Shown: positions 3,579-32,138, counted from the first letter of the stretch. The stretch: DNA of 64,000 nt from an uncultured archaeon (GCA_902385635.1 CABMGN010000008.1:130894-194893); one strand, 5' to 3'. A program made the numbers and translations. Notes: generated from the letters alone by a model not told the origin.

Positions 3579-3579
3579 A

Positions 3580-4116
3580 ATGGCAGATGCAAAAAGAAAA
3601 AAAAGATTTTTTGAAGTAGACATCCCGGTAATTAACAAATCAACCTTCCTTCTTGGATATGATGTAGAAGAACTAGCCGGAAGACAGTTTACATACGATC
3701 TAACAAGAGTCCTAAGAGGAAAAAATGCCCTAGTTTCTCTAAAGGTAAAAGTAAAAGAAGGAAAAGCAGAAGCTAATGCTATTGGTTTAGAGTTAGTTCC
3801 TTCATATATAAGAAGAATGGTTAGGAAAGGAACAAATTATGTTGAAGACTCATTCTCTACAGAAGCAAAAGATTCAGTAGTAAGAATAAAACCTTTCCTA
3901 GTTACAAGAAGAAAAGTATCTAGAGAAGTAAGAAAAGCCCTTCGAAACAAAGCAAAAGAAGAATTAGCAGCATATGTTAAAACAAAAACAGCAGAAGCAA
4001 TTGTAGAAGAATTGCTCCACGGATCATTACAAAAAACATTAAGCATAAAGCTAAAAAAAGTTTACCCGCTCTCTGTTTGTGAAATCAAAACATTCAAGGC
4101 AGAAAAGTTCAAATAA
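3580..4116 (+). CDS. rps3ae: 30S ribosomal protein S3Ae (eS1)
   Basis: 178 aa. KKRFFEVDIP..., SYIRRMVRKGTNYVEDSF and RIKPFLVTRRK match the conserved S3Ae layout. It starts 1 nt after the L44e stop. Confidence 0.85.
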   Translation: MADAKRKKRFFEVDIPVINKSTFLLGYDVEELAGRQFTYDLTRVLRGKNALVSLKVKVKEGKAEANAIGLELVPSYIRRMVRKGTNYVEDSFSTEAKDSVVRIKPFLVTRRKVSREVRKALRNKAKEELAAYVKTKTAEAIVEELLHGSLQKTLSIKLKKVYPLSVCEIKTFKAEKFK

Positions 4117-4179
4117 TTCTAATTAGTGACAAAAACAAAATCTTTTAAAGCGTTTTTTTCTAGGTTAAATATCCACTGC

Positions 4180-4251
4180 GCCTCCATAGCTCAGTGGCAG
4201 AGCGGCTGCCTTGTAAGCAGTAGGTCGGGGGTTCAAATCCCTCTGGAGGCT
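4180..4251 (+). tRNA. tRNA-Thr (anticodon UGU)
   Basis: Hand-folded. Acceptor GCCTCCA/TGGAGGC, D arm GCTC-AGTGGCA-GAGC, anticodon stem GCTGC/GCAGT with loop CTTGTAA, T arm GGGGG-TTCAAAT-CCCTC. Confidence 0.9.
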
Positions 4252-4290
4252 TTGAAAAAAAAGAAAAGAGCCAGGATTGTATCTTTATAG

Positions 4291-4851
4291 TTAATTAACC
4301 CGATCCAGGCTCTCAGCACTTCCGCTATCAATAAGAATTTTTGTGATCTCTTTAGGAATATTTGCAATCTGGCCCTTTTCATACGGCCCCATTTTGTTTC
4401 CATCAAGATCTAAGAATTCTTCAGTATCTGTTAAGAAAACAACCATTTCATTTTTAGTAGTTTCCTCTCTTTTTCCATTAAGAAGTTCGTTAAGCTTCTT
4501 ATCCGAACTATCAATACACTTCATCAAATCCTCAAACATTTCTTTTTCAAACTGGAGCATGTTATCAAAATCTTGTTTAGAAATACCTGTTTCAGCAGCA
4601 ATAAGAACCAGATTCAAAATTTTTTTTCTTCTTCTAATCATTAACTCTTTAAACAAAGTCAGAGCATTTTCCAATTGTTTCTTTGTCTTGATAATAACAT
4701 CAGAAAAAATATCATCTTGCTTTGAAGCAATTTCTCTTTTCTCTCTTAAATACTCTGCAACCTCTTTCACAAAATTCTTTGGTATTCCTTGTAATTGTTC
4801 GCTATACCTCTCTTTCCTACCTGCCTCATAAATATCATTATAGGTAATCAT
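4291..4851 (-). CDS. GINS subunit-like protein (Gins51/Sld5-like)
   Basis: 186 aa. An N-terminal helical region (YEAGRKERYSEQLQGIPKNFVKEVAEYLRE) and a C-terminal small domain (VVFLTDTEEFLDLDGNKMGPYEKGQIANIPKEITKILIDSGSA) follow the archaeal GINS51 pattern. Confidence 0.5.
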   Translation of the reverse strand: MITYNDIYEAGRKERYSEQLQGIPKNFVKEVAEYLREKREIASKQDDIFSDVIIKTKKQLENALTLFKELMIRRRKKILNLVLIAAETGISKQDFDNMLQFEKEMFEDLMKCIDSSDKKLNELLNGKREETTKNEMVVFLTDTEEFLDLDGNKMGPYEKGQIANIPKEITKILIDSGSAESLDRVN

Positions 4852-4906
4852 AAAATTAGAACAAAAGCCACATTTTTAACTATTATTATACCTGAAAAAG
4901 TGATTT

Positions 4907-6157
4907 TTACTTGTCAAATCCAACTTTTTTCAATAAGCTTCTACCGTTAAACTCTCCAAGTTCCCCCTTCAAGCAAGACTCTTCACAAAAATGAGTCTCT
5001 CCACCAATAGAAACAGAAGAAGGGTTAAAAAATAAAACCGGGACAGGATCAGCAGAATGATTTTTCACAACACACGGGGTTGCCTGATTAGCTGTAATTA
5101 AAAGAGAAACATTATTCTCCAAACAGAAAAGTCTCAAGTAAGAAAAAAGAGTTTTATCTAGATATTCTAACATCTTCACCCGATCAATTGGACGATTATC
5201 ATGACCTGGAAAGTCTGTCTCATTTATATGAATATAACAAAAATGGTATAAATCCTTATTTTCGTCTAAAACAAGTTCAGGCAGAGCACAAGCAGACTTA
5301 AGTCCCTCCTGGATATTTTCATATGCATCAAAATTGTCTAGTCTAGGATAATTAAAAGAAAAAACTTTCATACCAGAAGTCTTAGCAAATCCTTTTTCTA
5401 GCGGAGTATAAACAAGAGCCATCCAACGATGATAGTCTTTCATTTTAGGCATCTCGGTCCCGGCCCCCCTAAGTAAAAAATAATTTGCAGGAAGAAGTCC
5501 TTTTCTAACTCTCTCCAGATTAACCGGGTGATCTTCTAAAATAGCACAGGCTCTTTCAAGAAAAACATTAACAACATTAGCGGTATGAGTAGAATTATCA
5601 GAATCATCAAGAGCCTTACAAAAACTTATTTTGTCAACATCACTAATCTTTCCGTGAAAATATCCAGAGTCATTAGTAGAAATACTTTCAGAAAAACCCC
5701 CTTTAAGAACAAGAACAGCCCTATGCTGGGTTGTTGGTTTGAATAAAAAAGGGTAAGAAAACTTTATCTTACTAACCGCATTTGCAAGAGCATCTGCCTC
5801 AGAGGTTTTCAAAGACCTTCCGACTCTTCTATCTAAAATAATACCTGTTTTTTTATCAACACTTGCAAAATTAACTCTAAAGGAAATATCCCCCCTCTTC
5901 AAATCTAACCCACTACCAATAGCTTCAAGTTCCCCCCTAATACTCTTATTAAAATCATTTCCAAAAATACTCATTAAAGACTGATCAGATTCAGGAATAA
6001 ATCCTGGCTTTATCGGATACATTAAACCGAGTTTTGCACCACTTGAGATAAAAAAGTCTAAATTTGGGGTATTTGCTACATCTAAAGGGGTTTTTCCCTG
6101 AAGTTCTGGACACGGGCGGTCACAAACCCCATCTAATAAAACTAGGATACCTTTCAT
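4907..6157 (-). CDS. apgM: Cofactor-independent phosphoglycerate mutase, archaeal type
   Basis: 416 aa. The N-terminus MKGILVLLDGVCDRP...GKTPLDVANTPNLD, FRVNFASVD and HINETDFPGHD are typical of ApgM and the alkaline-phosphatase superfamily. Confidence 0.85.
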   Translation of the reverse strand: MKGILVLLDGVCDRPCPELQGKTPLDVANTPNLDFFISSGAKLGLMYPIKPGFIPESDQSLMSIFGNDFNKSIRGELEAIGSGLDLKRGDISFRVNFASVDKKTGIILDRRVGRSLKTSEADALANAVSKIKFSYPFLFKPTTQHRAVLVLKGGFSESISTNDSGYFHGKISDVDKISFCKALDDSDNSTHTANVVNVFLERACAILEDHPVNLERVRKGLLPANYFLLRGAGTEMPKMKDYHRWMALVYTPLEKGFAKTSGMKVFSFNYPRLDNFDAYENIQEGLKSACALPELVLDENKDLYHFCYIHINETDFPGHDNRPIDRVKMLEYLDKTLFSYLRLFCLENNVSLLITANQATPCVVKNHSADPVPVLFFNPSSVSIGGETHFCEESCLKGELGEFNGRSLLKKVGFDK

Positions 6158-14268: not shown

Positions 14269-14670
14269 ATGCCTGAAGAAAAAGAAGAAAAAATAACTGA
14301 AGAGAAGCCAACAAAGAAGACTTCTAAGAAACCGACTAAAGCAAAGAAACCAGAAAAGAAGAAGCTTACAGAAGCAGAGTTTGAGAAGAAAGTGCTAGAA
14401 CTAGCAAAAACCGGACTTACTTCAGAAAAGATTGGAGAAAAACTAAGAAAAGAAGGTATACACACAAAAGAGCACGGGATAAAAATCTCTAAAATTCTTA
14501 AAAAAAATAAATTATGGGTGAACCCAGATTTAAAAAACGTTTCTGAAAAACTTGAAAGGATAACTACGCACTACTCAAAAAACAAGCAAGATAAAAGAGC
14601 TATGCGTGAAAAAGATAGGTTTTTTTCACACAAAAGAAAGCTAGGCATCTATTATAGCAAGAAAGAATAA
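14269..14670 (+). CDS. rps15: 30S ribosomal protein S15 (uS15/S13e-type)
   Basis: 133 aa. A Lys-rich N-terminus is followed by LAKTGLTSEKIGEKLRKEGI, NPDLKNVSEKLERITTHYSKNKQDKRA and the C-terminal YYSK typical of archaeal S15. Confidence 0.8.
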   Translation: MPEEKEEKITEEKPTKKTSKKPTKAKKPEKKKLTEAEFEKKVLELAKTGLTSEKIGEKLRKEGIHTKEHGIKISKILKKNKLWVNPDLKNVSEKLERITTHYSKNKQDKRAMREKDRFFSHKRKLGIYYSKKE

Positions 14671-14701: not shown

Positions 14702-16048
14702 ATGGAAAATTCTTTAGAGTCACAAATAAAAAACATATCCCAGAAGTTCGTTGATCTAATAAAAGAGAGTGGTAAAGAAATTCTGGTAGTAAGCCACTTT
14801 GATACAGATGGGATAAGTTCAGCGGCAATTCTTGTTCAAACACTAAAAAGGCTTGATAAAAAGTTCTCACTTAAAATTCTCAAAGGACTAGAAAAAAACT
14901 TTACAAAAACCCTCCCAGAAGACAGAATAATCTTCTTCCTAGATCTAGGCTCAGGGGTTCTAGACGAGCTTGGCCGAGTCTTTAATGATAATATTTTCGT
15001 AATAGATCATCACGAAGTCCACCAAAAGATTCCAAAAAATGTTCTAATAATAAATACAGAGTTACACGAGAATAAACAAAAAATTTCTGCTTCGGGATTA
15101 ACCTACTTATTTTGTAGAGAAATAAATGAAAAAAACAAAGATCTAGCGAAGTTATCTGTTCTGGGTATGATTGGAGACTTACTAGAGAAAGAGATAGATA
15201 AGCTAAACCACTCTATACTAGAAGATTCTGAAGTAAAAAGAAAAAGAGGGTTGTTAGTGTATCCTGCAACACGGCCGCTAAACATAACATTAGAGTTTTC
15301 ATCAAATCCCTTCATACCTGGAGTAACCGGAGATCAAAAAGGAGTTCTTGAATTACTTAGAGATGCAGAACTAACAACAGAAGACGGAAAGTACAAGTCA
15401 CTCTTAGAGTTAAAAGAAGAGGAAATGGAAAGGTTGGTTACTTCAATAAGCCTAAGGAACCCTTCTATGAAACACGAAGAACTACTCGGAGATATATTCT
15501 TAGTAAAAATGTTTAACAAGTTAGAAGATGCAAGAGAGCTAAGTGCAAAGATAAATGCTTGTTCTAGAATGGGTGAGCCTGAAATAGCACTACAAATGTG
15601 TCTAGAATCAACAAAAGCGAAAAAGCGCGCAGATGCTATACACATAAAGTATAAACAAGAAATCCTATCTGGAATGCGTTTCGTAGCAGAAACACAAAAA
15701 ATTTCTGGGGAGGGATTTGTAATAATAAACGCCCAGGATAATATTAAAGAAACAATAGTTGGCACAATTGCAAGCATTATTTCAAACTCATCGACATACT
15801 CGAGAGGCACAGCTATTTTTACCATGGCTTACGATCAGGAAAATATACAGAAAATAAAAGTTTCGGCTAGAGCTGTTGGAAGAGAAGGCAAAAATGTTAG
15901 ACAGATTCTAAGCAAAGTTATAGACCTTACTGGTGGAGAAGTTGGGGGCCACGAATTTGCAGCAGGTTGTGTTATCTCGAGAGAAAAAGAAAATGAATTT
16001 ATAGACTGCCTAAAAAAGAACTTTGAAATTGAGCTAGTAAAGATTTAA
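14702..16048 (+). CDS. RecJ/Cdc45-like DHH phosphoesterase (GAN-like)
   Basis: 448 aa. SHFDTDGISSAAIL (DHH motif I/II region), VIDHH, and GGHEFAAG in the C-terminal DHHA1 region. It sits directly downstream of S15, a neighbourhood I recall as conserved in archaea. Confidence 0.75.
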   Translation: MENSLESQIKNISQKFVDLIKESGKEILVVSHFDTDGISSAAILVQTLKRLDKKFSLKILKGLEKNFTKTLPEDRIIFFLDLGSGVLDELGRVFNDNIFVIDHHEVHQKIPKNVLIINTELHENKQKISASGLTYLFCREINEKNKDLAKLSVLGMIGDLLEKEIDKLNHSILEDSEVKRKRGLLVYPATRPLNITLEFSSNPFIPGVTGDQKGVLELLRDAELTTEDGKYKSLLELKEEEMERLVTSISLRNPSMKHEELLGDIFLVKMFNKLEDARELSAKINACSRMGEPEIALQMCLESTKAKKRADAIHIKYKQEILSGMRFVAETQKISGEGFVIINAQDNIKETIVGTIASIISNSSTYSRGTAIFTMAYDQENIQKIKVSARAVGREGKNVRQILSKVIDLTGGEVGGHEFAAGCVISREKENEFIDCLKKNFEIELVKI

Positions 16049-16072
16049 AATCCCCTCGTTTCTAGATATTTT

Positions 16073-16771
16073 ATGACACTACAAGAAGGAGATATTGTCT
16101 GGACCACAGTAGATAGAATCATGGGAACAGTAGTTTTCATGAAAATAGACGGAGATGGTGAAGGCACAGTAATAGAAAGCGAAATTGCCCCCGGAAGAGT
16201 AAAAAACATCAGAGATTATGTTGTTCCTAAAAAAAGAGTAGTTTGTAAGGTAATAAGAATAAATGGTGACAGAGTAGATTTATCAATGAGGAGGGTTTCT
16301 GCAAAAGAACAAAAAGAAGCGAAAGAAGACGAGGAAAAAGAAAGAAATTATAAGAGCATTCTAAGAACAATTCTAAAAGAGAAACTACCCGAGACAGTAA
16401 ATAAAATAGAATCAGACAAAAGAAAAGTCTCAGAGTTATTAGAAGAAGCTAAAGCAAACCCAAAAATTCTTGAAAAATATCTAACAAAAGAGGAATCTGC
16501 AAAAATAGTAGAAATACTCGGTAATCAAAAGCAAAAAAAAGCAGAAGTAAAAAAGGAAATAGCTCTAACAACAATAAAACCTAACGGAATTTCTCTAATA
16601 AAAGAAATTTTAAAAGGATTTAATGCCAAATATATTGCAGCAGGAAAGTACCTAATTTCTTCGGAGTCAACAGATCTTAAATCAGCAGATAACCAGTTAA
16701 AGAAAAATCTTGAAGAAATTGAATCAAGATCTAAAAAAAGAGATGTTGAATTTAGTATAAAAGAAAAATGA
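16073..16771 (+). CDS. eif2a: Translation initiation factor aIF-2 alpha subunit (short form)
   Basis: 232 aa. N-terminal S1/OB domain (EGDIVWTTVDRIMGTVVFMKIDG...VDLSMRRVS), a helical middle, and a C-terminal alpha/beta domain (AKYIAAGKYLISSESTDLKSADNQL). It lies in the same operon as Nop10. Confidence 0.6.
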   Translation: MTLQEGDIVWTTVDRIMGTVVFMKIDGDGEGTVIESEIAPGRVKNIRDYVVPKKRVVCKVIRINGDRVDLSMRRVSAKEQKEAKEDEEKERNYKSILRTILKEKLPETVNKIESDKRKVSELLEEAKANPKILEKYLTKEESAKIVEILGNQKQKKAEVKKEIALTTIKPNGISLIKEILKGFNAKYIAAGKYLISSESTDLKSADNQLKKNLEEIESRSKKRDVEFSIKEK

Positions 16772-17694
16772 AAGACCTAGGCAAGAAAGCAGAAGGCATA
16801 AGAAGGTTAAAAGAAAGGGGCCTATTCACTAGGAGGTTATTATTCTTTACAGAACTCCCTTCAGAAGAAGATTTCAAAAAAAGATTAGGGCAAGAGGGTT
16901 TTAAGGACGGCGATCATATAGCAGTAAGATTCTCTTCTCCAAAAGAAGCGATTCATTTACCTAGAAGTGTTTTAATAGAATCTATAGACAGAGCATACAA
17001 GTTTCTAAAAGAAAATATGGGGGAAGATTTAGTTGCAATTATTCATGATTTTATTACTCCCGAGTTTAGCGGAGCAATTTTTATGAAAGGAAAAAAGATT
17101 TATGTTAATCTTCTTCCGGGAGCGTGGGAATCTCTACATGCCAAGAGCTGTGATCAAATTTTATTCGAGGGGAATTCAGCTACAGCGTGGTTTTCTCCAA
17201 ATAAAAAAGAGGCGTTGTTTGTAGACGGAGAAAGATTGATAAAAAAAGAGGTTGAAATCCCTAGAGAAAAGTTCTTAGAACTAATTAGTTTTATTTATGA
17301 TCGAATAAAAAACCTTAATCTAGAGGAAAAAACATTATATGAGTTCATGTTAACTAAAGATAAAGAACTTCAAGTGGTTGAAGCAAAAAGTAAAGACGAT
17401 TTTGATTTCTCAGAATTTGGGGGAAAAGAAGAGGTTCATGAAGTATCAACACCTGGAGATATAGAAAAGTGGAATAATAAACAAGAAATATTACTCTCTG
17501 TTCCTTTAGATAGACATGACGACTTAGTACTTCATCAATTAATAGAGAAAATCAAGCCACACAAAGACAAGGTATATGTTAGATATGGTATCTGCTCACA
17601 CCCCTGCATTGTTCTTAGAGAATTTGGGATAAAAACAATCCCCTATAATGAAGATATCGAAGTTTTAGAGGTAGACTTAAATGATAGTAGTTGA
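16768..17694 (+). CDS. PEP-utilising-enzyme-like protein (PPDK_N-type ATP-grasp plus swivel phosphohistidine-like domain, no TIM-barrel domain)
   Basis: 308 aa. LGKKAEGIRRLKERGL, IAVRFSSPKE and LVAIIHDFITPEFSGAIFM parallel the PEP synthase/PPDK N-terminal nucleotide-binding domain. The C-terminal YGICSHPCIVLREFGIKTIPY parallels the GG.TSHAAIVARELGIP mobile-His motif. Confidence 0.45.
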   Translation: MKDLGKKAEGIRRLKERGLFTRRLLFFTELPSEEDFKKRLGQEGFKDGDHIAVRFSSPKEAIHLPRSVLIESIDRAYKFLKENMGEDLVAIIHDFITPEFSGAIFMKGKKIYVNLLPGAWESLHAKSCDQILFEGNSATAWFSPNKKEALFVDGERLIKKEVEIPREKFLELISFIYDRIKNLNLEEKTLYEFMLTKDKELQVVEAKSKDDFDFSEFGGKEEVHEVSTPGDIEKWNNKQEILLSVPLDRHDDLVLHQLIEKIKPHKDKVYVRYGICSHPCIVLREFGIKTIPYNEDIEVLEVDLNDSS

Positions 17695-18292
17695 TCTAGA
17701 AATGTCTGGTACGGACCCAGAAAAATGTGGAATAGTCGAAATAGGTGCAGTAGAACTGGAAAGCCCTAAAAACATCTTTTCTCAAGAAGCTAAACTAGAA
17801 AAAGAAGAAATAATATACAATGATCCAACCTGTCAAAAAACCGTGCTAGAAGTATTAAATAAAACAGAAGAAGAACTAAGAAAACCCAAAAGACAAACAC
17901 AAAAAGAATTGTTGGTAAATTTCTTTGAATGGATAAGTAAAACCCCGGATAAAGTATTCGTCTGTCAGAACTATTTGGACATCTTATTTATAAGGCTTAA
18001 GTGCAAGAAGTACTCTCTAGCTCCCCCGCCAGTGATGTTCATAGACATAGGTTCGGTGGCTCAGACAAAGTATTACGCCCTCTATAAAAAGCCTCTAATA
18101 AATGCTGAAGGGTTTAATGATATGACTTTAAAGAAGGTTTCAGAATTTTGTGGGATGTTAGATGAAAGGAAAAGTCACACGGCCTTAGAAGATGTTAAGT
18201 TTGAAGCAGAATTAATATCAAGATTATTAAATGGAAAAAATCTGTTTAAAGAGTATAAACAGTTTAAAATTCCCCCACACCTTTTGAAATGA
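17681..18292 (+). CDS. DEDDh 3'-5' exonuclease (DnaQ/RNase T-like)
   Basis: 203 aa. ExoI VVDLEMSG, ExoII-like CQNYLDILFI, ExoIII HTALEDVKFEAEL. It overlaps the upstream gene by 14 nt. Confidence 0.7.
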   Translation: MIVVDLEMSGTDPEKCGIVEIGAVELESPKNIFSQEAKLEKEEIIYNDPTCQKTVLEVLNKTEEELRKPKRQTQKELLVNFFEWISKTPDKVFVCQNYLDILFIRLKCKKYSLAPPPVMFIDIGSVAQTKYYALYKKPLINAEGFNDMTLKKVSEFCGMLDERKSHTALEDVKFEAELISRLLNGKNLFKEYKQFKIPPHLLK

Positions 18293-18780
18293 AATTAAAG
18301 ATTCCTTTTTTTAAACAAAGGACTGGTTTCTATTGTGGTCCAGCCTCGCTAGAAATGGTTCTTGCATTCTTTAAGAAATACAAAACACAAAAGGAATTAG
18401 CAAAAGAAGCCAGAACAAAAAAAGATGGAACAACTCATGAAGAAATGATTAAAGTTGCGAGAAGGGAAGGTTTCTACTGCTATGTTCATAATAATTCAAC
18501 TATTGAAGAAATAAAACATTTTATCAAACAAGGACTTCCAGTCATAATTAATTATAAAGAGCCCTCCTCAGAAGAAGGACATTATGCAGTAATCTCCGGA
18601 TATAAAAAAAGCAGACTGATCTTAAATGACCCTTGGAATGGAAATAATTTCAAAATAAAGGAAAAAGAATTCTTAAGGAGATGGCATGACTATCATAAAA
18701 AACACGAATACAAAAATTGGATTTTAGTGCTCTCTAGGAAGAATTTAAATCTCGGTAAGTTATTTCTCCCTACGAAATGA
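18289..18780 (+). CDS. Peptidase C39-like (papain-fold cysteine peptidase, C39_2 type)
   Basis: 163 aa. FFKQRTGFYCGPASLEMVL supplies the oxyanion Q and catalytic C. EEGHYAVISGY supplies the catalytic H, followed by LNDPWNG. Confidence 0.65.
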   Translation: MKLKIPFFKQRTGFYCGPASLEMVLAFFKKYKTQKELAKEARTKKDGTTHEEMIKVARREGFYCYVHNNSTIEEIKHFIKQGLPVIINYKEPSSEEGHYAVISGYKKSRLILNDPWNGNNFKIKEKEFLRRWHDYHKKHEYKNWILVLSRKNLNLGKLFLPTK

Positions 18781-18914
18781 AACTTCGCAAATGCCCAAAA
18801 TGTAAAGAATACTCTTTAAAAGAAAATTGTAAAAAATGTAAATTACCAACAGAAGACGCGCATTACAAATTTATAAAATTAAGAGACGAAGCAGAGATTC
18901 ATCCACGAGATTAG
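18777..18914 (+). CDS. nop10: H/ACA RNP component Nop10
   Basis: 45-aa ORF absent from the track: MKLRKCPKCKEYSLKENCKKCKLPTEDAHYKFIKLRDEAEIHPRD. It has the CxxC...CxxC zinc ribbon followed by an AH-x-x-F segment, as in archaeal Nop10. Its ATG overlaps the upstream TGA (ATGA). Confidence 0.7.
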   Translation: MKLRKCPKCKEYSLKENCKKCKLPTEDAHYKFIKLRDEAEIHPRD

Positions 18915-20200
18915 GAGGTAAGCTTTTTTTGAATTAAGTTATTTTTTCTCTCTAATTTTTTCTTTTCAGCTTCAAAGTCAGAAGTTGTTTTAAGGTTGCT
19001 AGGCAATTCCAAAACTCCGTACGCTCCGTCGTAACCAGGCTTAACATACAGCTTTCCATCCCTATTAAGTATAATCAATTCAACTAATCTATCATTAAAT
19101 CCTTCTTTAGATAATTCTTCTTTAGAAATATGTAACAAAACATTAAATTCGTTTTCAAACTTTTCGATAAACCTATTATAAACTTCCCAAGTTTTATTAG
19201 AAGCTAAAGGACTTCCCAAATCAAGAGCGATAAGTTCATGTAGGGGAAGAAGTTTGAAAAAAGGTTTTCTATTAGGGTAATTTTCAATTTTTTGACTAGT
19301 CAAATCTACAACCCTATTCGCAACACCAATAGTCATCATCTTACCGCAAATAGGACAAATACCTTTCAGTTTCTGAGTCTCTTCCGGAGAAGCTGAAAAA
19401 CCGTGATCTTTATGGCCTGAAAAATGGTAGATACCATAAGAGGGATCCGTTTCCACAGTTCCAATAAAGTCATTCTCCCTAATTTGTCTTATTAACTCCG
19501 AGTAAGAATCAAGTTTCTTAAAAATAGTTGCCTCCCGGCCCATTCTCCACGGCCAAAAAGAGTGCGAATCTGAAAAACTAATAATTGATTTAGTATTTAA
19601 TTCAGAAATGGCCCAGTTCATTTCTGGGTCAGACGACATTCCAGTCTCTATTGCATGAATATTTTTTATCTGCTCGCCAAATGCTTCTTTTAGAGAATCA
19701 AACCCGCTCTTGCTTCCAAAAACTCCAAAATAAGGGGTCCAGACATGTGCGGGGATTACTTCTATTTCAGGAGAGATAGAAAACATTTCTCGAGTAAATT
19801 CTTCACAAGAAATCTTGAAGATAGGCCTACCGTCATAATCACGTCTCCCCTTCGTATCAAGATAACTGTTTATCTTGTCGACCACTTCAAAAGAAGGAGC
19901 TAAAAGAACAAGGTGAATTCTTCTTCCTCTCCCTTGAGTATACATTAAACTAATCTCACCAGAAAGAATAAATCTGAAACCAGTCTTTGAAGTTAAAATT
20001 CCTCTCTCTTCTTTAAGATTCTGTTTTAATTCATCCAACCAAACAGGATGTGTAAAATCACTAGTACCAAGAAGATCAAGGCCTTTCATTCTACCATACT
20101 TTTCCATTTTGTCTAAAGTAATATCTTTGCTACAAGCCCTTGAAAATCTAGAATGAAGATGTAAGTCTGCAATTACTCCTTCTTCTTTATAGTCTACCAT
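18911..20200 (-). CDS. endoQ: Endonuclease Q-like PHP-domain nuclease
   Basis: 429 aa. The N-terminal PHP motif ADLHLHSRFSRACSKD, GLDLLGTSDFTHP, and the C-terminal zinc finger CPICGKMMTIGVANRV match my recollection of archaeal EndoQ. Confidence 0.6.
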   Translation of the reverse strand: MVDYKEEGVIADLHLHSRFSRACSKDITLDKMEKYGRMKGLDLLGTSDFTHPVWLDELKQNLKEERGILTSKTGFRFILSGEISLMYTQGRGRRIHLVLLAPSFEVVDKINSYLDTKGRRDYDGRPIFKISCEEFTREMFSISPEIEVIPAHVWTPYFGVFGSKSGFDSLKEAFGEQIKNIHAIETGMSSDPEMNWAISELNTKSIISFSDSHSFWPWRMGREATIFKKLDSYSELIRQIRENDFIGTVETDPSYGIYHFSGHKDHGFSASPEETQKLKGICPICGKMMTIGVANRVVDLTSQKIENYPNRKPFFKLLPLHELIALDLGSPLASNKTWEVYNRFIEKFENEFNVLLHISKEELSKEGFNDRLVELIILNRDGKLYVKPGYDGAYGVLELPSNLKTTSDFEAEKKKLERKNNLIQKKLTS

Positions 20201-20977: not shown

Positions 20978-22012
20978 TTATTCCTCGTCAACAACTCCAC
21001 CGTCTGTAACCCAAAAGACACATTCGTTATCTGGCAAATTTGGAGAGTCTATTAATTTCGCAACTCTACTTCCCGCTTTTCCTCTTCGTAGATACATTCT
21101 ATAAGTTGAAGCGTGGCCAACAATATTTCCCCCAATAGCTGTTGTTGGATCCCCAAACATCATTGCAGGATTCGCCATAACTTGATTTGTAACGTAAACA
21201 GCGAGATTATGTGTTTCTGCTAACTTCATTAAATCGTGCAGATATCTATTCAGTTTCTGTTGCCTATCTGCAAGTTGGCCTCTTCCAGCAAATTCTGCCC
21301 TAAAATGAGCAGTCAAAGAGTCGATGATAACCATTTTAATTGGTTCTCCATTTTTAATCATCTCAGCAACTTTCTCCAAGAGTAAAATTTGGTGATCAGA
21401 GTTAAATGCCCTAGCAACTAAGATATTTTTTAAAACAGTCTCGGGATTCAAACCAAGTTTGTCTGCAATCTGTTTTATTCTTTGTGGTCTAAAAGTTCCT
21501 TCAGTATCAATAAAAACAGTTTTTCCGTTTGCCCCCCCTTTTTCTATAGGCAATTGAACATTAACAGCTAGTGTAAGTCCTAGCTGAGTTTTACCACTTC
21601 CAAAAGCGCCATAGGCTTCTGTAATTGCCCGAGACTCAACACCTCTTCCCCCCAGGAGATCATTCAAAGATTTGCTTCCAGTAGTAACATAAGTGACGTT
21701 CTGTCTTTTTTTAGCAAACTCCATTCCATCTGTAAAACCAAGATCAAGTAAATTTCTAGCAGCTTGTATAGCTTTTCTTGCAACAGCAGCGCCAACACCC
21801 GCAATATCCCCAAGAGTTGTCGGAGACATAACAGCAAGAGACATTAAATCATAAATTCCTGCAGATTCTAATTTAGCTGCAACGGCTGGACCAATTCCCG
21901 GAAGATCTGTTAAAGAAGGCTCTTCTTTTACTTCATCATCTACCTTCTTTCTTTTCTTCTTAGAATCATCATCAATAGCCTCTTTTATCTCCTCAATATC
22001 CTTCTTAGCCAT
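20978..22012 (-). CDS. radA: DNA repair and recombination protein RadA
   Basis: N-terminal HhH (LTDLPGIGPAVAAKLESAGI), Walker A GAFGSGKTQL, Walker B VIIDSL. The start is set at MAKKDIEE (22012) because a palindromic TTTATAAA sits at 22034..22041, the window-typical spacing. The 17-aa extension in the track is probably not translated. Confidence 0.92.
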   Translation of the reverse strand: MAKKDIEEIKEAIDDDSKKKRKKVDDEVKEEPSLTDLPGIGPAVAAKLESAGIYDLMSLAVMSPTTLGDIAGVGAAVARKAIQAARNLLDLGFTDGMEFAKKRQNVTYVTTGSKSLNDLLGGRGVESRAITEAYGAFGSGKTQLGLTLAVNVQLPIEKGGANGKTVFIDTEGTFRPQRIKQIADKLGLNPETVLKNILVARAFNSDHQILLLEKVAEMIKNGEPIKMVIIDSLTAHFRAEFAGRGQLADRQQKLNRYLHDLMKLAETHNLAVYVTNQVMANPAMMFGDPTTAIGGNIVGHASTYRMYLRRGKAGSRVAKLIDSPNLPDNECVFWVTDGGVVDEE

Positions 22013-22033
22013 TATATACAAAAATAGAGGCTG

Positions 22034-22041
22034 TTTATAAA
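22034..22041 (-). promoter_or_regulatory. TATA-box-like element upstream of radA
   Basis: TTTATAAA lies 22-29 nt upstream of the ATG at 22012. Confidence 0.5.
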
Positions 22042-22099
22042 CATTATTTGCATTTTGAAACATGTGTTCAAAATTGTATTATCACTCAAAAAGAAAAAA

Positions 22100-28277: not shown

Positions 28278-28877
28278 TTAAAGCTTTACATCTGTGTCAG
28301 TACAAGTATACTGACTAGGAGCAGAGGAACTAGGAGAATCTAAGCAGAATATTTTATCTTGAGATTTTTTTCCAGAACATAAATTTTTAGCCACTAAAGG
28401 ATCTCCCCCAGTAACAGGACAAGCAGGATAGTTACAAAGGTAATTCTTTAGTACGCCCTTATCTAAGTAATAAACCTGAACTTGCTTTCCAACATTTTGG
28501 TTATCTGCACAAGCAGCAGTTAGAGCAGCAGGATCTGTACTTGAAACAAACATAAATTCAGGACAGGTTATAGAAGCACAACCCGCAACCGCGTAAGTAG
28601 GTCTCTGTTTATTCAAAAAGTCACAAGTAACCTGACTAAGCTTTTCAGTATCTGAAACTAAAGTTCTTTGAGCAGAACAGAAATCATACTGGCTATTTGT
28701 ACTACATGCAATCTCACAATTTGATACAACATCCTTAACATTATTCTTAGAGAAGTAACTAGAAAATTTATCCCATCCAGCAGAGAAACCAATAATCAAA
28801 AAGACCAAGATTACAATTCCCAATATCAAAAGAATAATTGTGCTAATAGGCAAACCTTGACCCCTTTTATTATCCAT
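28278..28877 (-). CDS. Type IV pilin-like protein (class III signal peptide), Cys-rich
   Basis: 199 aa. MDNKRG|QGLPISTIILLILGIVILVFLII, then a Cys-rich globular part (12 Cys). Confidence 0.6.
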   Translation of the reverse strand: MDNKRGQGLPISTIILLILGIVILVFLIIGFSAGWDKFSSYFSKNNVKDVVSNCEIACSTNSQYDFCSAQRTLVSDTEKLSQVTCDFLNKQRPTYAVAGCASITCPEFMFVSSTDPAALTAACADNQNVGKQVQVYYLDKGVLKNYLCNYPACPVTGGDPLVAKNLCSGKKSQDKIFCLDSPSSSAPSQYTCTDTDVKL

Positions 28878-28925
28878 GAATTACCTAGCCTTCTTTTGTT
28901 TAAAAAGCTTTTTATGATGTAAGGT

Positions 28926-29354
28926 CTATGGGTGATATGGGTACTGAACGTAAAGAACTTCCTTTTCATAAGGAATAACAAAAAACTTATACTCGGTAGA
29001 AGTATAGGTTCCAGTAATAACATACTCTTCAGAAGGTTTCTCTACAAAAAAAGATGAAGACTGTAAGTTGAAATTAACCGCCCCAGATTTTTTAAGGAAT
29101 GAGACCTTTTTATACATAGAATTAACGCTAGCTAAAATATTTTGTTCGTCTAAGGTTTTAGAGTTAATCAAAACAGAATAAAGGAGAAATTTATCTGAGA
29201 TTAAATCTACGGTTTGTATAACAAAAATCTGGGAGAAAGTTCCCTGAACTTTTTGTTCAGAAGAATAAAAACTAAGAAGTGTTAAAGAGCACACAGCAAG
29301 AACCCCTAAAACCAGAAGAGTTATTGGAATATTAGCTTTTTTTGATTTAATCAT
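28926..29354 (-). CDS. Type IV pilin-like protein
   Basis: 142 aa. MIKSKKA|NIPITLLVLGVLAVCSLTLL. Its start overlaps the upstream stop by 4 nt. Confidence 0.5.
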   Translation of the reverse strand: MIKSKKANIPITLLVLGVLAVCSLTLLSFYSSEQKVQGTFSQIFVIQTVDLISDKFLLYSVLINSKTLDEQNILASVNSMYKKVSFLKKSGAVNFNLQSSSFFVEKPSEEYVITGTYTSTEYKFFVIPYEKEVLYVQYPYHP

Positions 29355-29830
29355 TTTGAAAAAGCAAAGTCTAACCTCCGATCATTGTTTATTCTTAGAG
29401 TATCACAGTAGAAAGTATAGCCGAACCACTGGATATTACAAACGGTAACTGATTCAAAATAAGGATTTTTCAATTGCTCTACTTTATTATTGTTATTATA
29501 AGAAATAATGAAGGAGGACTTAGTGTAGATTGATTCTAGATTGTTAACAAAAATTTTAACAGCTAAACTCCCAGTATTCTGATCCAAGTTTCCAAAATTA
29601 GCAATCTGAGAGAAAACAAAAGAACCAGACAGAGGAGTAGCTAAATAACTCATAACTTCTTTATTTTTTATTAAATCCCAAGAAAAAGGATTGATAACCT
29701 TTCTCGTTTGAGAACCCCCCCACAAGATAGAAGGCGCAAGTATTGATAAAAAAAGAATAACTATAATAATAATTGTTGCGATAAACCATGTAAGGGTATC
29801 CCCGATTTGTCCTTTCTTAGAGTTTAGCAT
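29351..29830 (-). CDS. Type IV pilin-like protein
   Basis: 159 aa. MLNSKKG|QIGDTLTWFIATIIIIVILFLSIL. Confidence 0.6.
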   Translation of the reverse strand: MLNSKKGQIGDTLTWFIATIIIIVILFLSILAPSILWGGSQTRKVINPFSWDLIKNKEVMSYLATPLSGSFVFSQIANFGNLDQNTGSLAVKIFVNNLESIYTKSSFIISYNNNNKVEQLKNPYFESVTVCNIQWFGYTFYCDTLRINNDRRLDFAFSK

Positions 29831-30308
29831 TTTTTTCTCCTTTATTTATAGCAACATCCATATTCACAAAGTACTGAGTACCCTCACTGTCAACAGCGTA
29901 AACTTTTCTGCTCAGACAGTATGGAAGATTTTTTTGATGTCCATTTTTTTGGAGGTCGCAAAAGTCATTCAGCGAAGGGCTTCCTGTTTGATTGCTAAAA
30001 ATAACAGATCCAGTAGAAAAATCAGAGACAACAACAGAAACAAAAAACTGACTGTCATTTTCCCACTTAGCATACTTCTCAGTTTCAAAAGTAAGTTTAC
30101 AATAAGAGAAAAAATCTGGAGCATTAAAAGCATCCATTTTTAGATATAGTTCCGGAATTAAACAGTTAGAAATTTGATAAACAAGGGCGTTTGATTCAAC
30201 TTCACGTATATCATAAGGTTCACCATAAAAATTAGAAACCATATAGACTATTGCACCTGCGACTATAAAGATAATTGCAAACCAATAAACAGACATTACC
30301 TTTTCCAT
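29817..30308 (-). CDS. N-terminally anchored pilus-locus protein
   Basis: 163 aa. MEKVMSVYWFAIIFIVAGAIVYMV has no basic-G leader but is a single N-terminal helix, followed by a Cys-containing globular part. It overlaps both neighbours. Confidence 0.45.
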   Translation of the reverse strand: MEKVMSVYWFAIIFIVAGAIVYMVSNFYGEPYDIREVESNALVYQISNCLIPELYLKMDAFNAPDFFSYCKLTFETEKYAKWENDSQFFVSVVVSDFSTGSVIFSNQTGSPSLNDFCDLQKNGHQKNLPYCLSRKVYAVDSEGTQYFVNMDVAINKGEKNAKL

Positions 30309-30709
30309 TATTCTTTAGTAGTTATTCGCAAGACTAATTTATTTTCTTCAAGATATTTATCAATATTAATCTGTTTAGCATCTCTAAAAAAGGAGTAATC
30401 ATATCCCTTACGCCCGGCGATATTAACATTAACAACATTATTTGTAATAGTAACTACATTCTCGATAGGAACTCCGTTACTTTTCGCTTTTGAAAAGGCC
30501 TCTTCCATATCAAGCTTAATTAGCATCGGAGTTTTAGAGTAATCAACCAAGAGAGCTATCTGTTTAGAATACTGTTCTTCCATTAAAGCCGGACCAGACA
30601 TTTTTGAATAAATAAACAATATTAGAATACTCAAAAAAACCAGATTCAGAATAATAAAAATAAGATTTTCGGTAAGAATTTGTCCGTTTTTATCCCTCAA
30701 TTTCAGCAT
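30308..30709 (-). CDS. Type IV pilin-like protein
   Basis: 133 aa. MLKLRDKNG|QILTENLIFIILNLVFLSILILF. Confidence 0.6.
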   Translation of the reverse strand: MLKLRDKNGQILTENLIFIILNLVFLSILILFIYSKMSGPALMEEQYSKQIALLVDYSKTPMLIKLDMEEAFSKAKSNGVPIENVVTITNNVVNVNIAGRKGYDYSFFRDAKQINIDKYLEENKLVLRITTKE

Positions 30710-30754
30710 ACAAACAAAAGAAGAAGAATATTAATAAACTTTTAGAAAACAAAG

Positions 30755-31498
30755 TTAACCTTTAGTAACATCAAAAAGGTCACAAACCCCGGGGGTAGAA
30801 GGAATATCTTCTACCGCTATAATTGAAGGATGAACTGGAGAAGACTTTTGAAAACCAAACCATTCTAAGTCAGGATTTATTCCGGTTATTATTGCGTATT
30901 TCTTCTTTAAATCCAAGTCAGGGATTGGGTACATTCTACCCTTAGAAGAAAGAGCGTCTTCAACAGTGTTAGTAGAATATAAATAAGAAGCATACGTTTG
31001 AGAAGCATCTTTCTTTTCAAGCTCAAGATAAAGAGTTAGGTCATCTTTAGTTATTGAAATCGAGTTGAGAGAGTCTCCAAATTTAATAATAGAACAAACC
31101 GCACAGTGATAAGAATAACTACCCGAAACACTATTCTGAACATACTTAACATTTCCCTCACCAAACATCATCCAACAATCTGAAAGTTCATTAGCAAGAG
31201 CGCTAAGTATTTGTTTCCGCTCATCTCCGGGGAGTATTTTAATTGTTTCATCTGCCTTAATATCTGTACAAGCCTCACCGCGAGTTATACAAACGTAATT
31301 TGTTTCACAGTTTGGATTTTTACTCACAGGATCTTTTCCTGAGAGGATTACTGATGCCTTGCAGATTTCTCTTTTTGAGTCTTCCTGGAGATTTAAACGA
31401 GAGAGAAAAATAATTATTACTGCAAAACTTAAAACCAAAATGATAAGTGCAACTATCTGAGCAGTAGTTAATTCCCCTTTTTGATTTCTTTTAAACAT
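30755..31498 (-). CDS. Type IV pilin-like protein, Cys-rich
   Basis: 247 aa. MFKRNQKG|ELTTAQIVALIILVLSFAVIIIF, then a globular domain with 9 Cys. Confidence 0.6.
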   Translation of the reverse strand: MFKRNQKGELTTAQIVALIILVLSFAVIIIFLSRLNLQEDSKREICKASVILSGKDPVSKNPNCETNYVCITRGEACTDIKADETIKILPGDERKQILSALANELSDCWMMFGEGNVKYVQNSVSGSYSYHCAVCSIIKFGDSLNSISITKDDLTLYLELEKKDASQTYASYLYSTNTVEDALSSKGRMYPIPDLDLKKKYAIITGINPDLEWFGFQKSSPVHPSIIAVEDIPSTPGVCDLFDVTKG

Positions 31499-31499
31499 T

Positions 31500-32137: not shown

Positions 32138-32138
32138 G

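What the first reader, a model, noticed from the sequence alone, without database searches (positions are those of the whole stretch)
16768..18780. Three-gene cassette inserted into the conserved aIF2alpha-Nop10 gene pair
In many archaea the aIF-2 alpha and Nop10 genes are immediate neighbours, as part of the L44e-S27e-aIF2alpha-Nop10 cluster as I recall it. Here aIF2alpha (16073..16771) and an unlisted Nop10 ORF (18777..18914) are separated by three genes:
- a PEP-utilising-enzyme-like protein
- a DEDDh exonuclease
- a C39-like cysteine peptidase

All five genes are chained by ATGA or 14-nt overlaps, which implies strict co-translation. I do not recognise this trio (phosphotransfer, 3'-5' exonuclease, papain-like peptidase) as a described system. 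Its insertion into a translation/ribosome-biogenesis operon suggests either an RNA/RNP-processing role or a selfish or defence-like module riding on an essential operon.
Basis: partly seen in the sequence, partly recalled or inferred. Interest (0 to 1): 0.65.

Follow-up and report, generated by a model that had tools for sequence, protein, structure and literature searches.

The report
Layered gene insertions in aIF2alpha–Nop10 operon
Three extra genes really do sit, tightly overlapped, between aIF2-alpha and Nop10 in this small archaeal genome. They are not one system: an exonuclease long resident there, a novel ATP-grasp/histidine enzyme that tends to travel with it, and an unrelated stray peptidase.

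Summary
aIF2alpha (16073-16771), a 308-aa protein (X308, 16768-17694), a DEDDh exonuclease (EXO, 17681-18292), a C39 peptidase (18289-18780) and Nop10 (18777-18914) are chained by three ATGA overlaps and one 14-nt overlap.

The "three-gene cassette/system" reading does not hold. No other locus among about 45 examined carries the trio.
- **EXO:** in related DPANN contigs it sits alone between aIF2alpha and Nop10. More distant orthologues sit beside Gins51. It is a clade-specific housekeeping nuclease of the known replication/translation supercluster.
- **X308:** a previously unnamed family. It is a trimmed PPDK_N-type ATP-grasp domain (hhalign 95%; Foldseek: rifampin phosphotransferase, PEP synthase) plus a C-terminal domain with an invariant His in a PEP-synthase-like motif. 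It adjoins a DEDDh exonuclease in three independent arrangements. Its bacterial relatives lie in HIT–methyltransferase–PPDK_N–2H-phosphoesterase operons. This suggests phosphotransfer to a nucleotide or nucleic-acid end.
- **C39 peptidase:** a scattered stand-alone CPR/DPANN gene with intact catalytic residues and no link to the other two.

I found no mobile-element or defence signatures. Interest is moderate. The X308–exonuclease pairing and the bacterial operon are the novel leads.

The parts
14269..14670 (+). Ribosomal protein S15 (S13e); first gene of the same-strand block S15-RecJ-aIF2alpha-X308-EXO-C39-Nop10
   Evidence: Pfam Ribosomal_S13_N 31.3 bits, NCBIfam PRK08561. The same order S15-RecJ-(S27e)-aIF2alpha-EXO is found in L003 and L005.
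14702..16048 (+). RecJ/Cdc45 (GAN)-like DHH nuclease
   Evidence: Pfam DHH, DHH_CID, DHHA1; NCBIfam RecJ_archaeal 324 bits.
16073..16771 (+). aIF2 alpha subunit (232 aa). Its stop codon overlaps the X308 start (ATGA).
   Evidence: Pfam EIF_2_alpha above the cut-off; NCBIfam IF-2 alpha models E = 1e-23; junction read.
16768..17694 (+). X308: a trimmed PPDK_N-type ATP-grasp domain (about residues 1-215) plus a C-terminal alpha/beta domain (about 222-308). The C-terminal domain carries the invariant His278 in the motif YG(I/L)(C/L)SHP(A/C)I(V/L)LRExG. Predicted ATP-dependent phosphotransferase of an unnamed family.
   Evidence: No Pfam or NCBIfam hit. 171 relatives by exhaustive profile search. 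AlphaFold2 model pLDDT 84. Foldseek top hits: rifampin phosphotransferase ATP domain and PEP synthase, E = 3e-9 to 9e-7. hhalign to the PPDK_N of fused relatives: 95%, E = 3.7e-8. Invariant K7, R54, S56, D129, H278, R284, E285. His278 aligns to E. coli PpsA 'GGRTCHAAIIARELGIP'.
17681..18292 (+). EXO: single-domain DEDDh (DnaQ/RNase T-like) 3'-5' exonuclease with a complete catalytic set (D5, E7, D100, H166, D171)
   Evidence: Pfam RNase_T 37.6 bits. Family invariants. Profile search against PDB sequences: DnaQ 8h18 E = 2.5e-14, PolC exonuclease 2p1j, Cas2-DEDDh, RNase T. Orthologues sit between aIF2alpha and Nop10 in L003-L006.
18289..18780 (+). Stand-alone C39-like papain-fold cysteine peptidase (Q10, C16, H98, D114). 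No signal peptide and no ABC-transporter part.
   Evidence: Pfam Peptidase_C39_2 and C39, 68-69 bits. PDB sequence hits: PCAT double-glycine protease 6mpz E = 7e-10, endoisopeptidase PeiR 8z4h. 85 clusters in CPR bacteria and DPANN archaea. Invariant residues.
18777..18914 (+). Nop10 (45 aa), H/ACA RNP protein; last gene of the chain
   Evidence: Pfam Nop10p 28.9 vs 27.2; NCBIfam PRK13130 E = 8e-7. Homologous small ORFs follow EXO in L003-L006.

Best explanation
The block is a layered, lineage-specific elaboration of the archaeal L44e-S27e-aIF2alpha-Nop10 (LSIN) operon in a small-genome DPANN-type archaeon. It is not a three-component system.

**Layer 1, EXO.** EXO is a Mg-dependent DEDDh 3'-5' exonuclease. 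It is a clade-specific housekeeping enzyme of the replication/translation supercluster. It sits alone between aIF2alpha and Nop10 in sister lineages, and next to Gins51 in more distant ones. I infer that it trims or degrades nucleic-acid 3' ends. I favour stable-RNA 3'-end maturation or turnover; a DNA substrate is the alternative.

**Layer 2, X308.** X308 is a minimal dikinase-like enzyme. A PPDK_N-type ATP-grasp domain binds ATP. An invariant His278, in a PEP-synthase-like motif, is the probable phospho-carrier. No acceptor-binding domain is present, so the acceptor must be bound in trans. X308 recurs next to DEDDh exonucleases. Its bacterial relatives sit with HIT, SAM-methyltransferase and 2H-phosphoesterase genes. 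From this I infer that the acceptor is a nucleotide or a nucleic-acid end, and that X308 and EXO cooperate.

**Layer 3, C39.** The C39-like peptidase is an intact, cytoplasmic, stand-alone enzyme common in CPR bacteria and DPANN archaea. It landed here only in this lineage and works independently.

**Shown versus inferred.** Shown: gene order, overlaps, domain identities, catalytic residues, and the distribution of neighbours. Inferred: substrates, His phosphorylation, and X308-EXO cooperation.
For: **EXO is an old resident of this slot.**
- aIF2alpha-EXO-Nop10, without X308 or C39, is found in L003, L004 and L005/L006 (EXO 53-58% identical).
- These EXOs form one clade with the window and L042.
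- EXO-Gins51 is found in L008/L009 and L010.
- The LSIN cluster is known to abut Gins/PCNA/PriS genes (PMC2643942).
- The window has Gins51 next to the same phosphoglycerate-mutase-like gene, but with no EXO there.

**X308 and EXO recur together.**
- aIF2alpha-X308-EXO in the window and in L042.
- L4-EXO-X308-L23, with the order reversed and in another ribosomal operon, in L001. That EXO belongs to a different EXO clade.
- A distant X308 lies next to a DnaQ-like DEDDh exonuclease in L041.

**X308 identity.**

**Nucleotide or RNA-end context of the family.**
- HIT-methyltransferase-[X308 fused to PPDK_N]-2H phosphoesterase in 9 loci.
- Fusions to HIT domains in 11 of 67 multidomain relatives.

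**C39 is independent.**
- It is absent from L042 and from all EXO and X308 loci.
- Its closest homologues lie in a bacterial L20/L35/IF3 context and in an unrelated Pacearchaeota context.

**No mobility or defence signs.**
Against: - The context sample is small. There are 9 distinct EXO loci, many of them short contigs. About 19 DPANN-type X308 loci show no EXO within 5 kb. The X308-EXO link therefore rests on 3-4 loci and could be partly inherited synteny.
- The C-terminal domain of X308, modelled alone, has no significant Foldseek match. In particular it does not match the PEP-utilizers swivelling domain.
- PF00391 matches are only marginal.
- hhalign to PpsA has 10% probability, P = 0.003. 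His phosphorylation is therefore inferred from a motif.
- The closest solved relatives of EXO by profile are DnaQ and PolC proofreading domains, not RNases. It also neighbours RecJ/Cdc45 and Gins51. A DNA role is nearly as likely as an RNA role.
- The four consecutive overlaps mean that C39 is at least co-expressed with the others.
Confidence: 0.6

Rival explanations
1. The three genes form one functional module (phosphotransfer + exonuclease + peptidase). Examples would be a stress, toxin or defence-like system, or an RNP-processing complex, riding on an essential operon.
For: - Four consecutive start/stop overlaps imply co-expression.
- Some multidomain X308 relatives carry SIR2 or calcineurin-like nuclease domains that hit PADLOC effector models.
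- EXO hits the PADLOC 'DEDDh, CAS-associated' model.
Against: - The trio was found nowhere else.
- EXO alone fills the slot in sister lineages.
- The closest relative, L042, lacks C39.
- X308 and C39 have no PADLOC hit.
- No viral-contig relatives, flanking repeats or compositional anomaly.
Confidence: 0.06
2. EXO is a replication or repair DNA exonuclease that works with the CMG components RecJ/Cdc45 and GINS. Possible roles are proofreading, flap or primer removal, and end resection. Its place between aIF2alpha and Nop10 reflects only the known replication-translation supercluster. X308 would be an accessory or an unrelated gene.
For: - The best profile matches to solved structures are DnaQ (8h18) and the PolC exonuclease domain.
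- NCBIfam hits are to PolC and DEDD exonuclease models.
- EXO lies immediately upstream of Gins51 in L008-L010.
- RecJ/Cdc45 is in the same operon in the window, L003 and L005.
- The supercluster is documented in PMC2643942.
Against: - The genome already encodes PolD with its DP1 exonuclease subunit.
- In L001 the EXO-X308 pair lies between ribosomal proteins L4 and L23, with no replication gene in view.
- Relatives of X308 associate with RNA- or nucleotide-end enzymes: HIT, 2H phosphoesterase and methyltransferase.
- DEDDh sequence similarity does not discriminate between RNA and DNA substrates.
Confidence: 0.25
3. All adjacencies, including X308-EXO, are neutral accidents of gene shuffling in highly compacted genomes. 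In such genomes new genes survive best when dropped into strongly expressed operons. Under this view there is no functional link between any of the three.
For: - Most X308 loci (about 19 DPANN-type) have no EXO nearby, and their neighbours vary.
- The operon is fluid here: S27e has been lost between RecJ and aIF2alpha, and C39 has been gained.
- 24% of same-strand gene pairs in the window overlap.
Against: - X308-EXO adjacency occurs in two different operons, in both orders, and in two EXO clades.
- It occurs again, with distant family members, in L041.
- For about 1000-gene genomes, a repeat of a specific adjacency by chance is of the order of 0.2-0.4% per genome.
Confidence: 0.2
4. X308 and C39 form a RiPP-type pair. 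Graspetide and microviridin clusters combine an ATP-grasp macrocyclase with a C39 leader peptidase.
For: Foldseek lists the graspetide ligases MdnC and PsnB at E of about 1e-6 to 1e-5. C39 domains cleave double-glycine leaders (PDB 6mpz).
Against: - The better structural matches are rifampin phosphotransferase and PEP synthase.
- The X308 N-terminal domain is homologous to PPDK_N, which is of kinase type, not ligase type.
- There is no precursor-peptide ORF and no transporter in the block.
- C39 never accompanies X308 elsewhere.
Confidence: 0.03

Closest known systems
LSIN cluster (L44e-S27e-aIF2alpha-Nop10) and its supercluster with PCNA/PriS/Gins genes (Berthon et al. 2008, PMC2643942)
   Same: aIF2alpha and Nop10 are on one strand in one operon. 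Replication genes (RecJ/Cdc45 in the operon, Gins51 12 kb away) are associated with it.
   Different: - The pair is split by three genes.
- S27e is absent from the operon, and L44e lies elsewhere (3267-3578).
- A DEDDh exonuclease is a clade-conserved extra member between aIF2alpha and Nop10. The 2008 survey does not mention this: the word 'exonuclease' does not occur in its text.
PEP-utilising dikinase and phosphotransferase enzymes (PEP synthase PpsA, PPDK, rifampin phosphotransferase RPH, PigC/RedH)
   Same: - PPDK_N-type ATP-grasp with the G-x-K-A and V-R-x-S motifs (hhalign 95%; Foldseek 5fbs, 5hv6, 2ols).
- The invariant His lies in SHPAIxLRExG, which aligns with the PpsA phospho-His motif TCHAAIIARELG.
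- Relatives are fused to canonical PPDK_N domains.
   Different: - Only 308 aa, with no acceptor-substrate domain (no PEP/pyruvate TIM barrel or rifampin-binding domain).
- No direct Pfam or NCBIfam hit.
- The C-terminal domain is predicted as a small beta-alpha-beta fold and has no significant match to the swivelling domain.
DnaQ / PolC-exo / RNase T / oligoribonuclease DEDDh exonucleases, including Cas2-DEDDh
   Same: Full DEDDh catalytic set and about 200-aa single-domain size.
   Different: - A distinct DPANN/CPR-restricted subfamily: 38 clusters, and only 33-76% identity among its members.
- Encoded within translation/replication operons.
- No polymerase, Cas or helicase fusion partner.
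C39 double-glycine peptidase domains of PCAT/ComA-type ABC exporters; PeiR endoisopeptidase
   Same: Papain-like fold family. The Gln/Cys/His/Asp residues are conserved.
   Different: - Stand-alone 163-aa protein with no transporter.
- No signal peptide and no identifiable double-glycine substrate gene nearby.
- The family is spread over CPR bacteria and DPANN archaea in unrelated contexts.

Membership tests
Conserved three-gene system (X308 + DEDDh + C39) | The three genes co-occur or are adjacent in other genomes | tested here: not met
   - 10 other EXO loci, 35 other X308 loci and 3 C39 loci were examined. None has all three.
- L042 (EXO 76% identical) has X308-EXO but no C39.
LSIN operon (aIF2alpha-Nop10 neighbourhood) | aIF2alpha and Nop10 genes on the same strand in one operon | tested here: met
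   Pfam hits above the cut-offs for both. Same strand, and a continuous overlapping chain. Strict adjacency is not met: three genes intervene.
DEDDh exonuclease (RNase_T, PF00929) | Exo I D-x-E, Exo II D, Exo III H-x4-D catalytic residues, and a Pfam score above the gathering cut-off | tested here: met
   RNase_T 37.6 bits vs 24. D5, E7, D100 and H166 are invariant and D171 is at least 90% conserved in 35 family members.
Peptidase C39 | Pfam score above the cut-off; catalytic Cys/His plus oxyanion Gln and Asp | tested here: met
   Peptidase_C39 68.1 vs 22; C39_2 69.2 vs 24. Q10, C16, H98 and D114 are invariant in 28 homologues.
Peptidase C39 (bacteriocin-processing PCAT type) | Fusion to or adjacency with an ABC exporter, and a double-glycine leader substrate | tested here: not met
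   The protein is a 163-aa stand-alone. There is no ABC transporter or small precursor ORF in the block.
PEP-utilising enzymes: PPDK_N ATP-grasp domain (PF01326) | Homology to the AMP/ATP-binding ATP-grasp domain | tested here: met
   - There is no direct Pfam hit.
- The profile of 20 X308 proteins aligns over 198 columns to the PPDK_N domains of fused relatives: hhalign 95%, E = 3.7e-8.
- Foldseek top hits are the ATP domain of rifampin phosphotransferase and PEP synthase.
PEP-utilising enzymes: mobile phospho-His domain (PF00391) | Swivelling-domain fold with the catalytic His in a T/S-H-x-A-I-x-A-R-E-x-G motif | tested here: inconclusive
   - Motif: His278, R284 and E285 are invariant. hhalign places His278 on the PpsA 'TCHAAIIARELG' His, but with only 10% probability and P = 0.003.
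- Pfam PF00391 gives only marginal hits: 2 of 20 members at E = 0.1 or weaker, and 4 of 67 fused forms at E = 0.004 or weaker.
- Fold: the isolated-domain model (pLDDT 84) has no Foldseek hit below E of about 1.
PEP-utilising enzymes (PEPS/PPDK/RPH architecture) | A third domain that binds the acceptor substrate | tested here: not met
   The 308 aa are fully accounted for by the ATP-grasp domain (1 to about 215) and the His-bearing domain (about 222-308).
Known anti-phage defence systems (PADLOC-DB) | Match of the components to defence-system models | tested here: not met
   X308 and C39 have no hits. EXO matches only the generic DEDDh and exonuclease effector models.
Mobile cassette / genomic island | Flanking repeats, integrase or transposase, compositional anomaly, presence on viral contigs | tested here: not met
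   - Only short, low-identity AT-rich repeats.
- GC is 0.30-0.37 throughout.
- No X308 relative, and only one weak EXO relative, on viral contigs.
COG2047 'ATP-grasp' protein next to Nop10 in Euryarchaeota (PMC2643942) | Homology to that family | not tested
   The family is mentioned, but no COG2047 sequence was available for comparison. X308 has no Pfam hit at all. Its gene is upstream of EXO, not adjacent to Nop10.

The most novel reading that the evidence does not exclude
X308 and the DEDDh exonuclease form a two-enzyme module for nucleic-acid ends or nucleotides. An ATP-grasp/phospho-His enzyme phosphorylates (or pyrophosphorylates) an RNA end or a released nucleotide, and this is coupled to 3'-5' trimming. 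The module would be the minimal archaeal counterpart of an undescribed bacterial operon: cysteine desulfurase, HIT, methyltransferase, X308 fused to PPDK_N, and 2H phosphoesterase. That operon could be a new RNA-end repair or modification pathway.
Probability: 0.22. Interest if true: 0.65.

Novelty: new variant of a known kind. Interest (0 to 1): 0.4.

Why it matters
For genome annotation, the result warns against reading tight overlap in ultra-compact DPANN genomes as evidence of a 'system'. Here, overlap chains unrelated genes to essential ones.

Three positive results stand out.
- **A clade-specific exonuclease in a rigid cluster.** A DEDDh exonuclease is a stable member of the aIF2alpha-Nop10 / Gins51 information-processing supercluster in one DPANN clade. 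It is a candidate for the poorly known 3'-end RNA (or DNA) processing machinery of these organisms.
- **An unnamed enzyme family.** X308 has 171 representatives at 50% clustering. It is a minimal PPDK_N ATP-grasp domain plus a His domain, with no acceptor domain. That design is unusual for dikinase-type enzymes.
- **A shared gene context.** The family associates with DEDDh, HIT, methyltransferase and 2H-phosphoesterase genes. This points to an unexplored nucleotide or RNA-end chemistry shared by CPR-like bacteria and DPANN archaea.

Tried and rejected
- **Direct family assignment of X308.** Pfam, NCBIfam and PADLOC gave nothing. phmmer and a profile hmmsearch against PDB sequences also gave nothing meaningful.
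- **Swivel-domain test.** I modelled residues 222-308 alone and ran Foldseek. There was no significant hit, so I do not claim the swivelling-domain fold.
- **RiPP (graspetide) reading of ATP-grasp + C39.** Rejected: no precursor gene, PPDK_N-type homology, and no co-occurrence.
- **Defence or mobile-cassette reading.** Rejected.
- **Identity with the COG2047 'ATP-grasp' neighbour of Nop10 in Euryarchaeota.** Considered, but not testable here.
- **Literature searches.** Searches for a described DEDDh/DPANN link or a PPDK_N-HIT operon found nothing relevant. The Burroughs & Aravind RNA-repair survey (recalled from memory; ids PMC5062991 and 10.1093/nar/gkw722) is not held in the library.
- **Technical failures.** The search for related loci with the 20-sequence alignment failed because no stretch was conserved enough.
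- **Exhausted caps.** The many short EXO contigs (P0007, P0008, P0011-P0020 and others) therefore could not be inspected.


Full report
**1. What is in the sequence**

The + strand between 14269 and 18914 carries a tight block:
- S15 (14269-14670)
- a RecJ/Cdc45-like DHH nuclease (14702-16048)
- aIF2alpha (16073-16771)
- a 308-aa protein, here called X308 (16768-17694)
- a 203-aa DEDDh exonuclease, EXO (17681-18292)
- a 163-aa C39-like peptidase (18289-18780)
- a 45-aa Nop10 (18777-18914)

Pfam scores exceed the curated cut-offs for aIF2alpha, EXO, C39 and Nop10. X308 has no Pfam or NCBIfam hit.

The Nop10 stop also overlaps the stop of the convergent gene 18911-20200. In this window 12 of 50 same-strand neighbour pairs overlap, and four of those twelve form this chain. 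The run is therefore tighter than the genome's already compact background. There is no GC anomaly, and only short, low-identity repeats flank the block.

**2. The exonuclease is an old resident of this slot, not part of a recent cassette**

The EXO family comprises 38 clusters at 90% identity, 33-76% identical to the window protein. The catalytic residues D5, E7, D100 and H166 are invariant, and D171 is nearly so.

Gene contexts of EXO relatives:

| Locus | EXO identity | Gene order |
|---|---|---|
| L003, L004, L005/L006 | 53-58% | (S15-RecJ-S27e)-aIF2alpha-EXO-Nop10; no X308, no C39 |
| L042 | 76% | aIF2alpha(C-terminus)-X308-EXO, then a gap and a Nudix-like gene; no C39, no Nop10 in the 130 nt that remain |
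| L008/L009, L010 | 42-45% | EXO immediately upstream of Gins51 |

- **Syntenic block.** In L008-L010 the EXO-Gins51 pair lies in a block (phosphoglycerate-mutase-like gene, NDK, S3Ae, L44e). The window contains the same block 12 kb upstream, but without EXO.
- **EXO tree.** A rough neighbour-joining tree puts all aIF2alpha-linked EXOs in one clade, with the window and L042 as a subclade.
- **Known supercluster.** Berthon et al. 2008 described the LSIN cluster (L44e-S27e-aIF2alpha-Nop10) and its near-systematic contiguity with PCNA/PriS/Gins genes (PMC2643942). EXO is thus a clade-specific member of that known replication/translation supercluster, and it has moved within it.
- **Substrate unresolved.** By profile search, the closest solved relatives are DnaQ (8h18, E = 2.5e-14), the PolC exonuclease domain, Cas2-DEDDh and then RNase T. 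Sequence does not settle RNA versus DNA. The genome already encodes PolD with its DP1 exonuclease subunit.

**3. X308 is a minimal PPDK_N-type ATP-grasp protein with a conserved His domain**

- **Family size.** A word-indexed search found only three relatives. An exhaustive profile search found 171.
- **Fold.** The AlphaFold2 model is confident (pLDDT 84, pTM 0.80). Its best PDB matches are the ATP-binding domain of rifampin phosphotransferase (5fbs/5hv6, E = 3e-9 to 5e-8) and PEP synthase (2ols). Generic ATP-grasp ligases follow.
- **Fused relatives.** Many relatives are 570-1000-aa proteins in which the X308 module is fused to a canonical PPDK_N domain. All 67 tested have one.
- **N-terminal domain.** hhalign aligns X308 residues 1-213 to that PPDK_N domain with 95% probability (E = 3.7e-8). 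G-x-K-A matches G-x-K-A, V-R-F-S matches V-R-S-S, and P-E-F-S-G matches P-E-Y-S-G.
- **Invariant residues.** Across 20 stand-alone members, K7, R54, S56, D129, H278, R284 and E285 are invariant.
- **The His motif.** It reads YG(I/L)(C/L)SHP(A/C)I(V/L)LRExG. In a profile-sequence comparison with the 792-aa E. coli PpsA, the only alignment returned places His278 on the His of 'GGRTCHAAIIARELGIP'. From my own knowledge this is the phospho-carrier His421. The statistics are weak (P = 0.003, 10% probability).
- **The C-terminal domain is not confirmed as a swivelling domain.** Modelled alone (pLDDT 84), it is a beta-alpha-beta-alpha-beta-alpha-beta unit with no significant Foldseek hit. PF00391 matches are marginal.

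I therefore file X308 as homologous to the PPDK_N ATP-grasp domain, and as working like a dikinase-type phosphotransferase. This is inferred. I do not file it as a demonstrated member of the PEP-utilizers mobile-domain family. It has no third, acceptor-binding domain.

**4. Does X308 belong with EXO?**

*Evidence for a link:*
- X308-EXO adjacency occurs in the window and in L042. L002 shows the same aIF2alpha-X308 junction.
- In L001 the two genes lie in reversed order and overlap by ATGA. They are wedged between ribosomal proteins L4 and L23.
- The L001 EXO belongs to a different EXO clade, and its X308 is sister to a non-adjacent X308 in L014.
- A distant, frameshifted X308 in L041 lies 1 kb from a DnaQ-like DEDDh exonuclease.

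*Evidence against a link:*
- None of about 19 DPANN-type stand-alone X308 loci (L011-L014, L017-L031) has an EXO, C39 or HIT gene within the fetched flanks. Their neighbours vary: DNA ligase, TyrRS/TrpRS, glycosyltransferases and others.

The link is therefore real but not obligatory.

**5. Context of the wider X308 family**

In nine bacterial loci (L015, L016, L034-L040) the X308 module is fused to a canonical PPDK_N domain. It sits in a conserved operon:
- (NifS/IscS/DndA-like cysteine desulfurase)
- HIT (DcpS_C/CwfJ_C-like)
- class I SAM methyltransferase
- X308 fused to PPDK_N
- 2H phosphoesterase

Variants and fusions:
- L032 has X308 next to a HIT-methyltransferase fusion.
- L041 inserts the DEDDh exonuclease and a radical-SAM protein into the operon.
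- Fusions occur with C-terminal HIT domains (11 of 67), SIR2 (2) and a calcineurin-like phosphoesterase (1).

These partners all act on nucleotides or nucleic-acid ends. This is the basis for my inference about the X308 acceptor. I found no literature on this operon.

**6. The C39 peptidase is unrelated to the other two**

- It has the full Gln10/Cys16/His98/Asp114 set.
- It resembles PCAT double-glycine protease domains and the PeiR endoisopeptidase.
- It is a stand-alone protein of about 165 aa, found in 85 clusters. Source names include Parcubacteria/Patescibacteria, Pacearchaeota and Nanoarchaeota.
- Its closest inspected homologue (60% identity, L043) lies in a bacterial L20/L35/IF3 neighbourhood. 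A Pacearchaeota homologue lies next to unrelated genes.
- It is absent from every other EXO and X308 locus.

**7. Rejected readings**

- **Defence or selfish element.** PADLOC gives only generic DEDDh hits. There are no viral-contig relatives of X308, and only one weak relative of EXO. There are no mobility genes or repeats.
- **RiPP cluster (ATP-grasp + C39).** There is no precursor or transporter gene. The homology is of PPDK_N type, not ligase type, and the two genes do not co-occur elsewhere.

**8. Verdict**

The interpretation as a three-gene system is not supported. The block is best explained as layered accretion in a fluid, highly expressed operon of a compact DPANN genome:
- an ancient clade-specific DEDDh exonuclease;
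- a later-arriving mini-dikinase that shows a recurrent but facultative association with such exonucleases;
- a lineage-private insertion of a promiscuous C39 peptidase.

S27e has been lost from the operon.

My confidence that the trio is not a unit is about 0.75-0.8. My confidence in X308-EXO cooperation is about 0.4-0.45. RNA versus DNA as the EXO substrate is roughly even, with a slight preference for RNA.

Novelty: a new variant of known kinds (an LSIN operon variant, and a new family related to PPDK_N enzymes). Interest is moderate (0.4). It comes mainly from the uncharacterised X308 family and its operon partners.

Noticed in passing
L015:90-3986, L016, L034-L040 (e.g. L035:391-5520): A conserved bacterial operon that I could not find described in the literature. 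Gene order: cysteine desulfurase (NifS/IscS/DndA-like), HIT (DcpS_C/CwfJ_C-like), class I SAM methyltransferase, X308 module fused to a canonical PPDK_N ATP-grasp (about 640 aa), and 2H phosphoesterase (RNA 2',3'-cyclic phosphodiesterase-like). It may be a nucleotide or RNA-end modification or repair pathway.
   Followed up: partly
L041:1945-5873: A variant of that operon: HIT, methyltransferase, DnaQ-like DEDDh exonuclease (231 aa), radical-SAM protein (Rv2578c-like), and X308. The X308 is split into two ORFs, so it is frameshifted or a pseudogene.
   Followed up: partly
Proteins P0167, P0185, P0109, P0077 and others: The PPDK_N/X308 module is fused to SIR2 in P0167 and P0185; those SIR2 domains hit the PADLOC pAgo-associated SIR2 models. 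It is fused to a calcineurin-like phosphoesterase in P0109, and to C-terminal HIT domains in 11 of 67 relatives.
   Followed up: partly
window 16048-16073, versus L003:2042-2212 and L005:2570-2755: Ribosomal protein S27e sits between RecJ/Cdc45 and aIF2alpha in related contigs. It is missing there in the window (a 24-nt gap) and was not found anywhere in the 64 kb.
   Followed up: partly
window 3267-6157: L44e (3267-3578), S3Ae (3580-4116), Gins51 (4291-4851, - strand) and a phosphoglycerate-mutase-like gene (4907-6157, - strand). In relatives L008-L010 the EXO orthologue sits between the mutase and Gins51. That slot is empty here (55 nt), which indicates relocation of EXO within the supercluster.
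   Followed up: yes
window 18911-20200 (-): A TIGR00375-family protein (429 aa, no Pfam hit) converges on Nop10. The two stop codons overlap by 4 nt.
   Followed up: no
window 28278-37863 (-): A run of seven small proteins (133-247 aa), each with an N-terminal hydrophobic helix (pilin-like). It is followed by a 742-aa protein with no Pfam hit and a 762-aa T2SSE-family ATPase. This is probably a type IV pilus-like locus.
   Followed up: partly
window 54866-61224 (-): PolD large subunit DP2 (54866-58366), small subunit DP1 (58356-59915) and Cdc6/Orc1 (59965-61224), in a row. RadA is at 20978-22063. The window is rich in replication genes.
   Followed up: partly
L001:1-1871: EXO and X308 are inserted between ribosomal proteins L4 and L23, inside what is normally an uninterrupted ribosomal-protein operon. 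All junctions are ATGA overlaps.
   Followed up: yes
L007:3217-5639: An EXO-family member (43% identity) lies on a contig that also encodes a sigma-70 factor, FtsZ and MnmA. It is probably a CPR-type bacterium, so the EXO subfamily may be shared between CPR bacteria and DPANN archaea.
   Followed up: no
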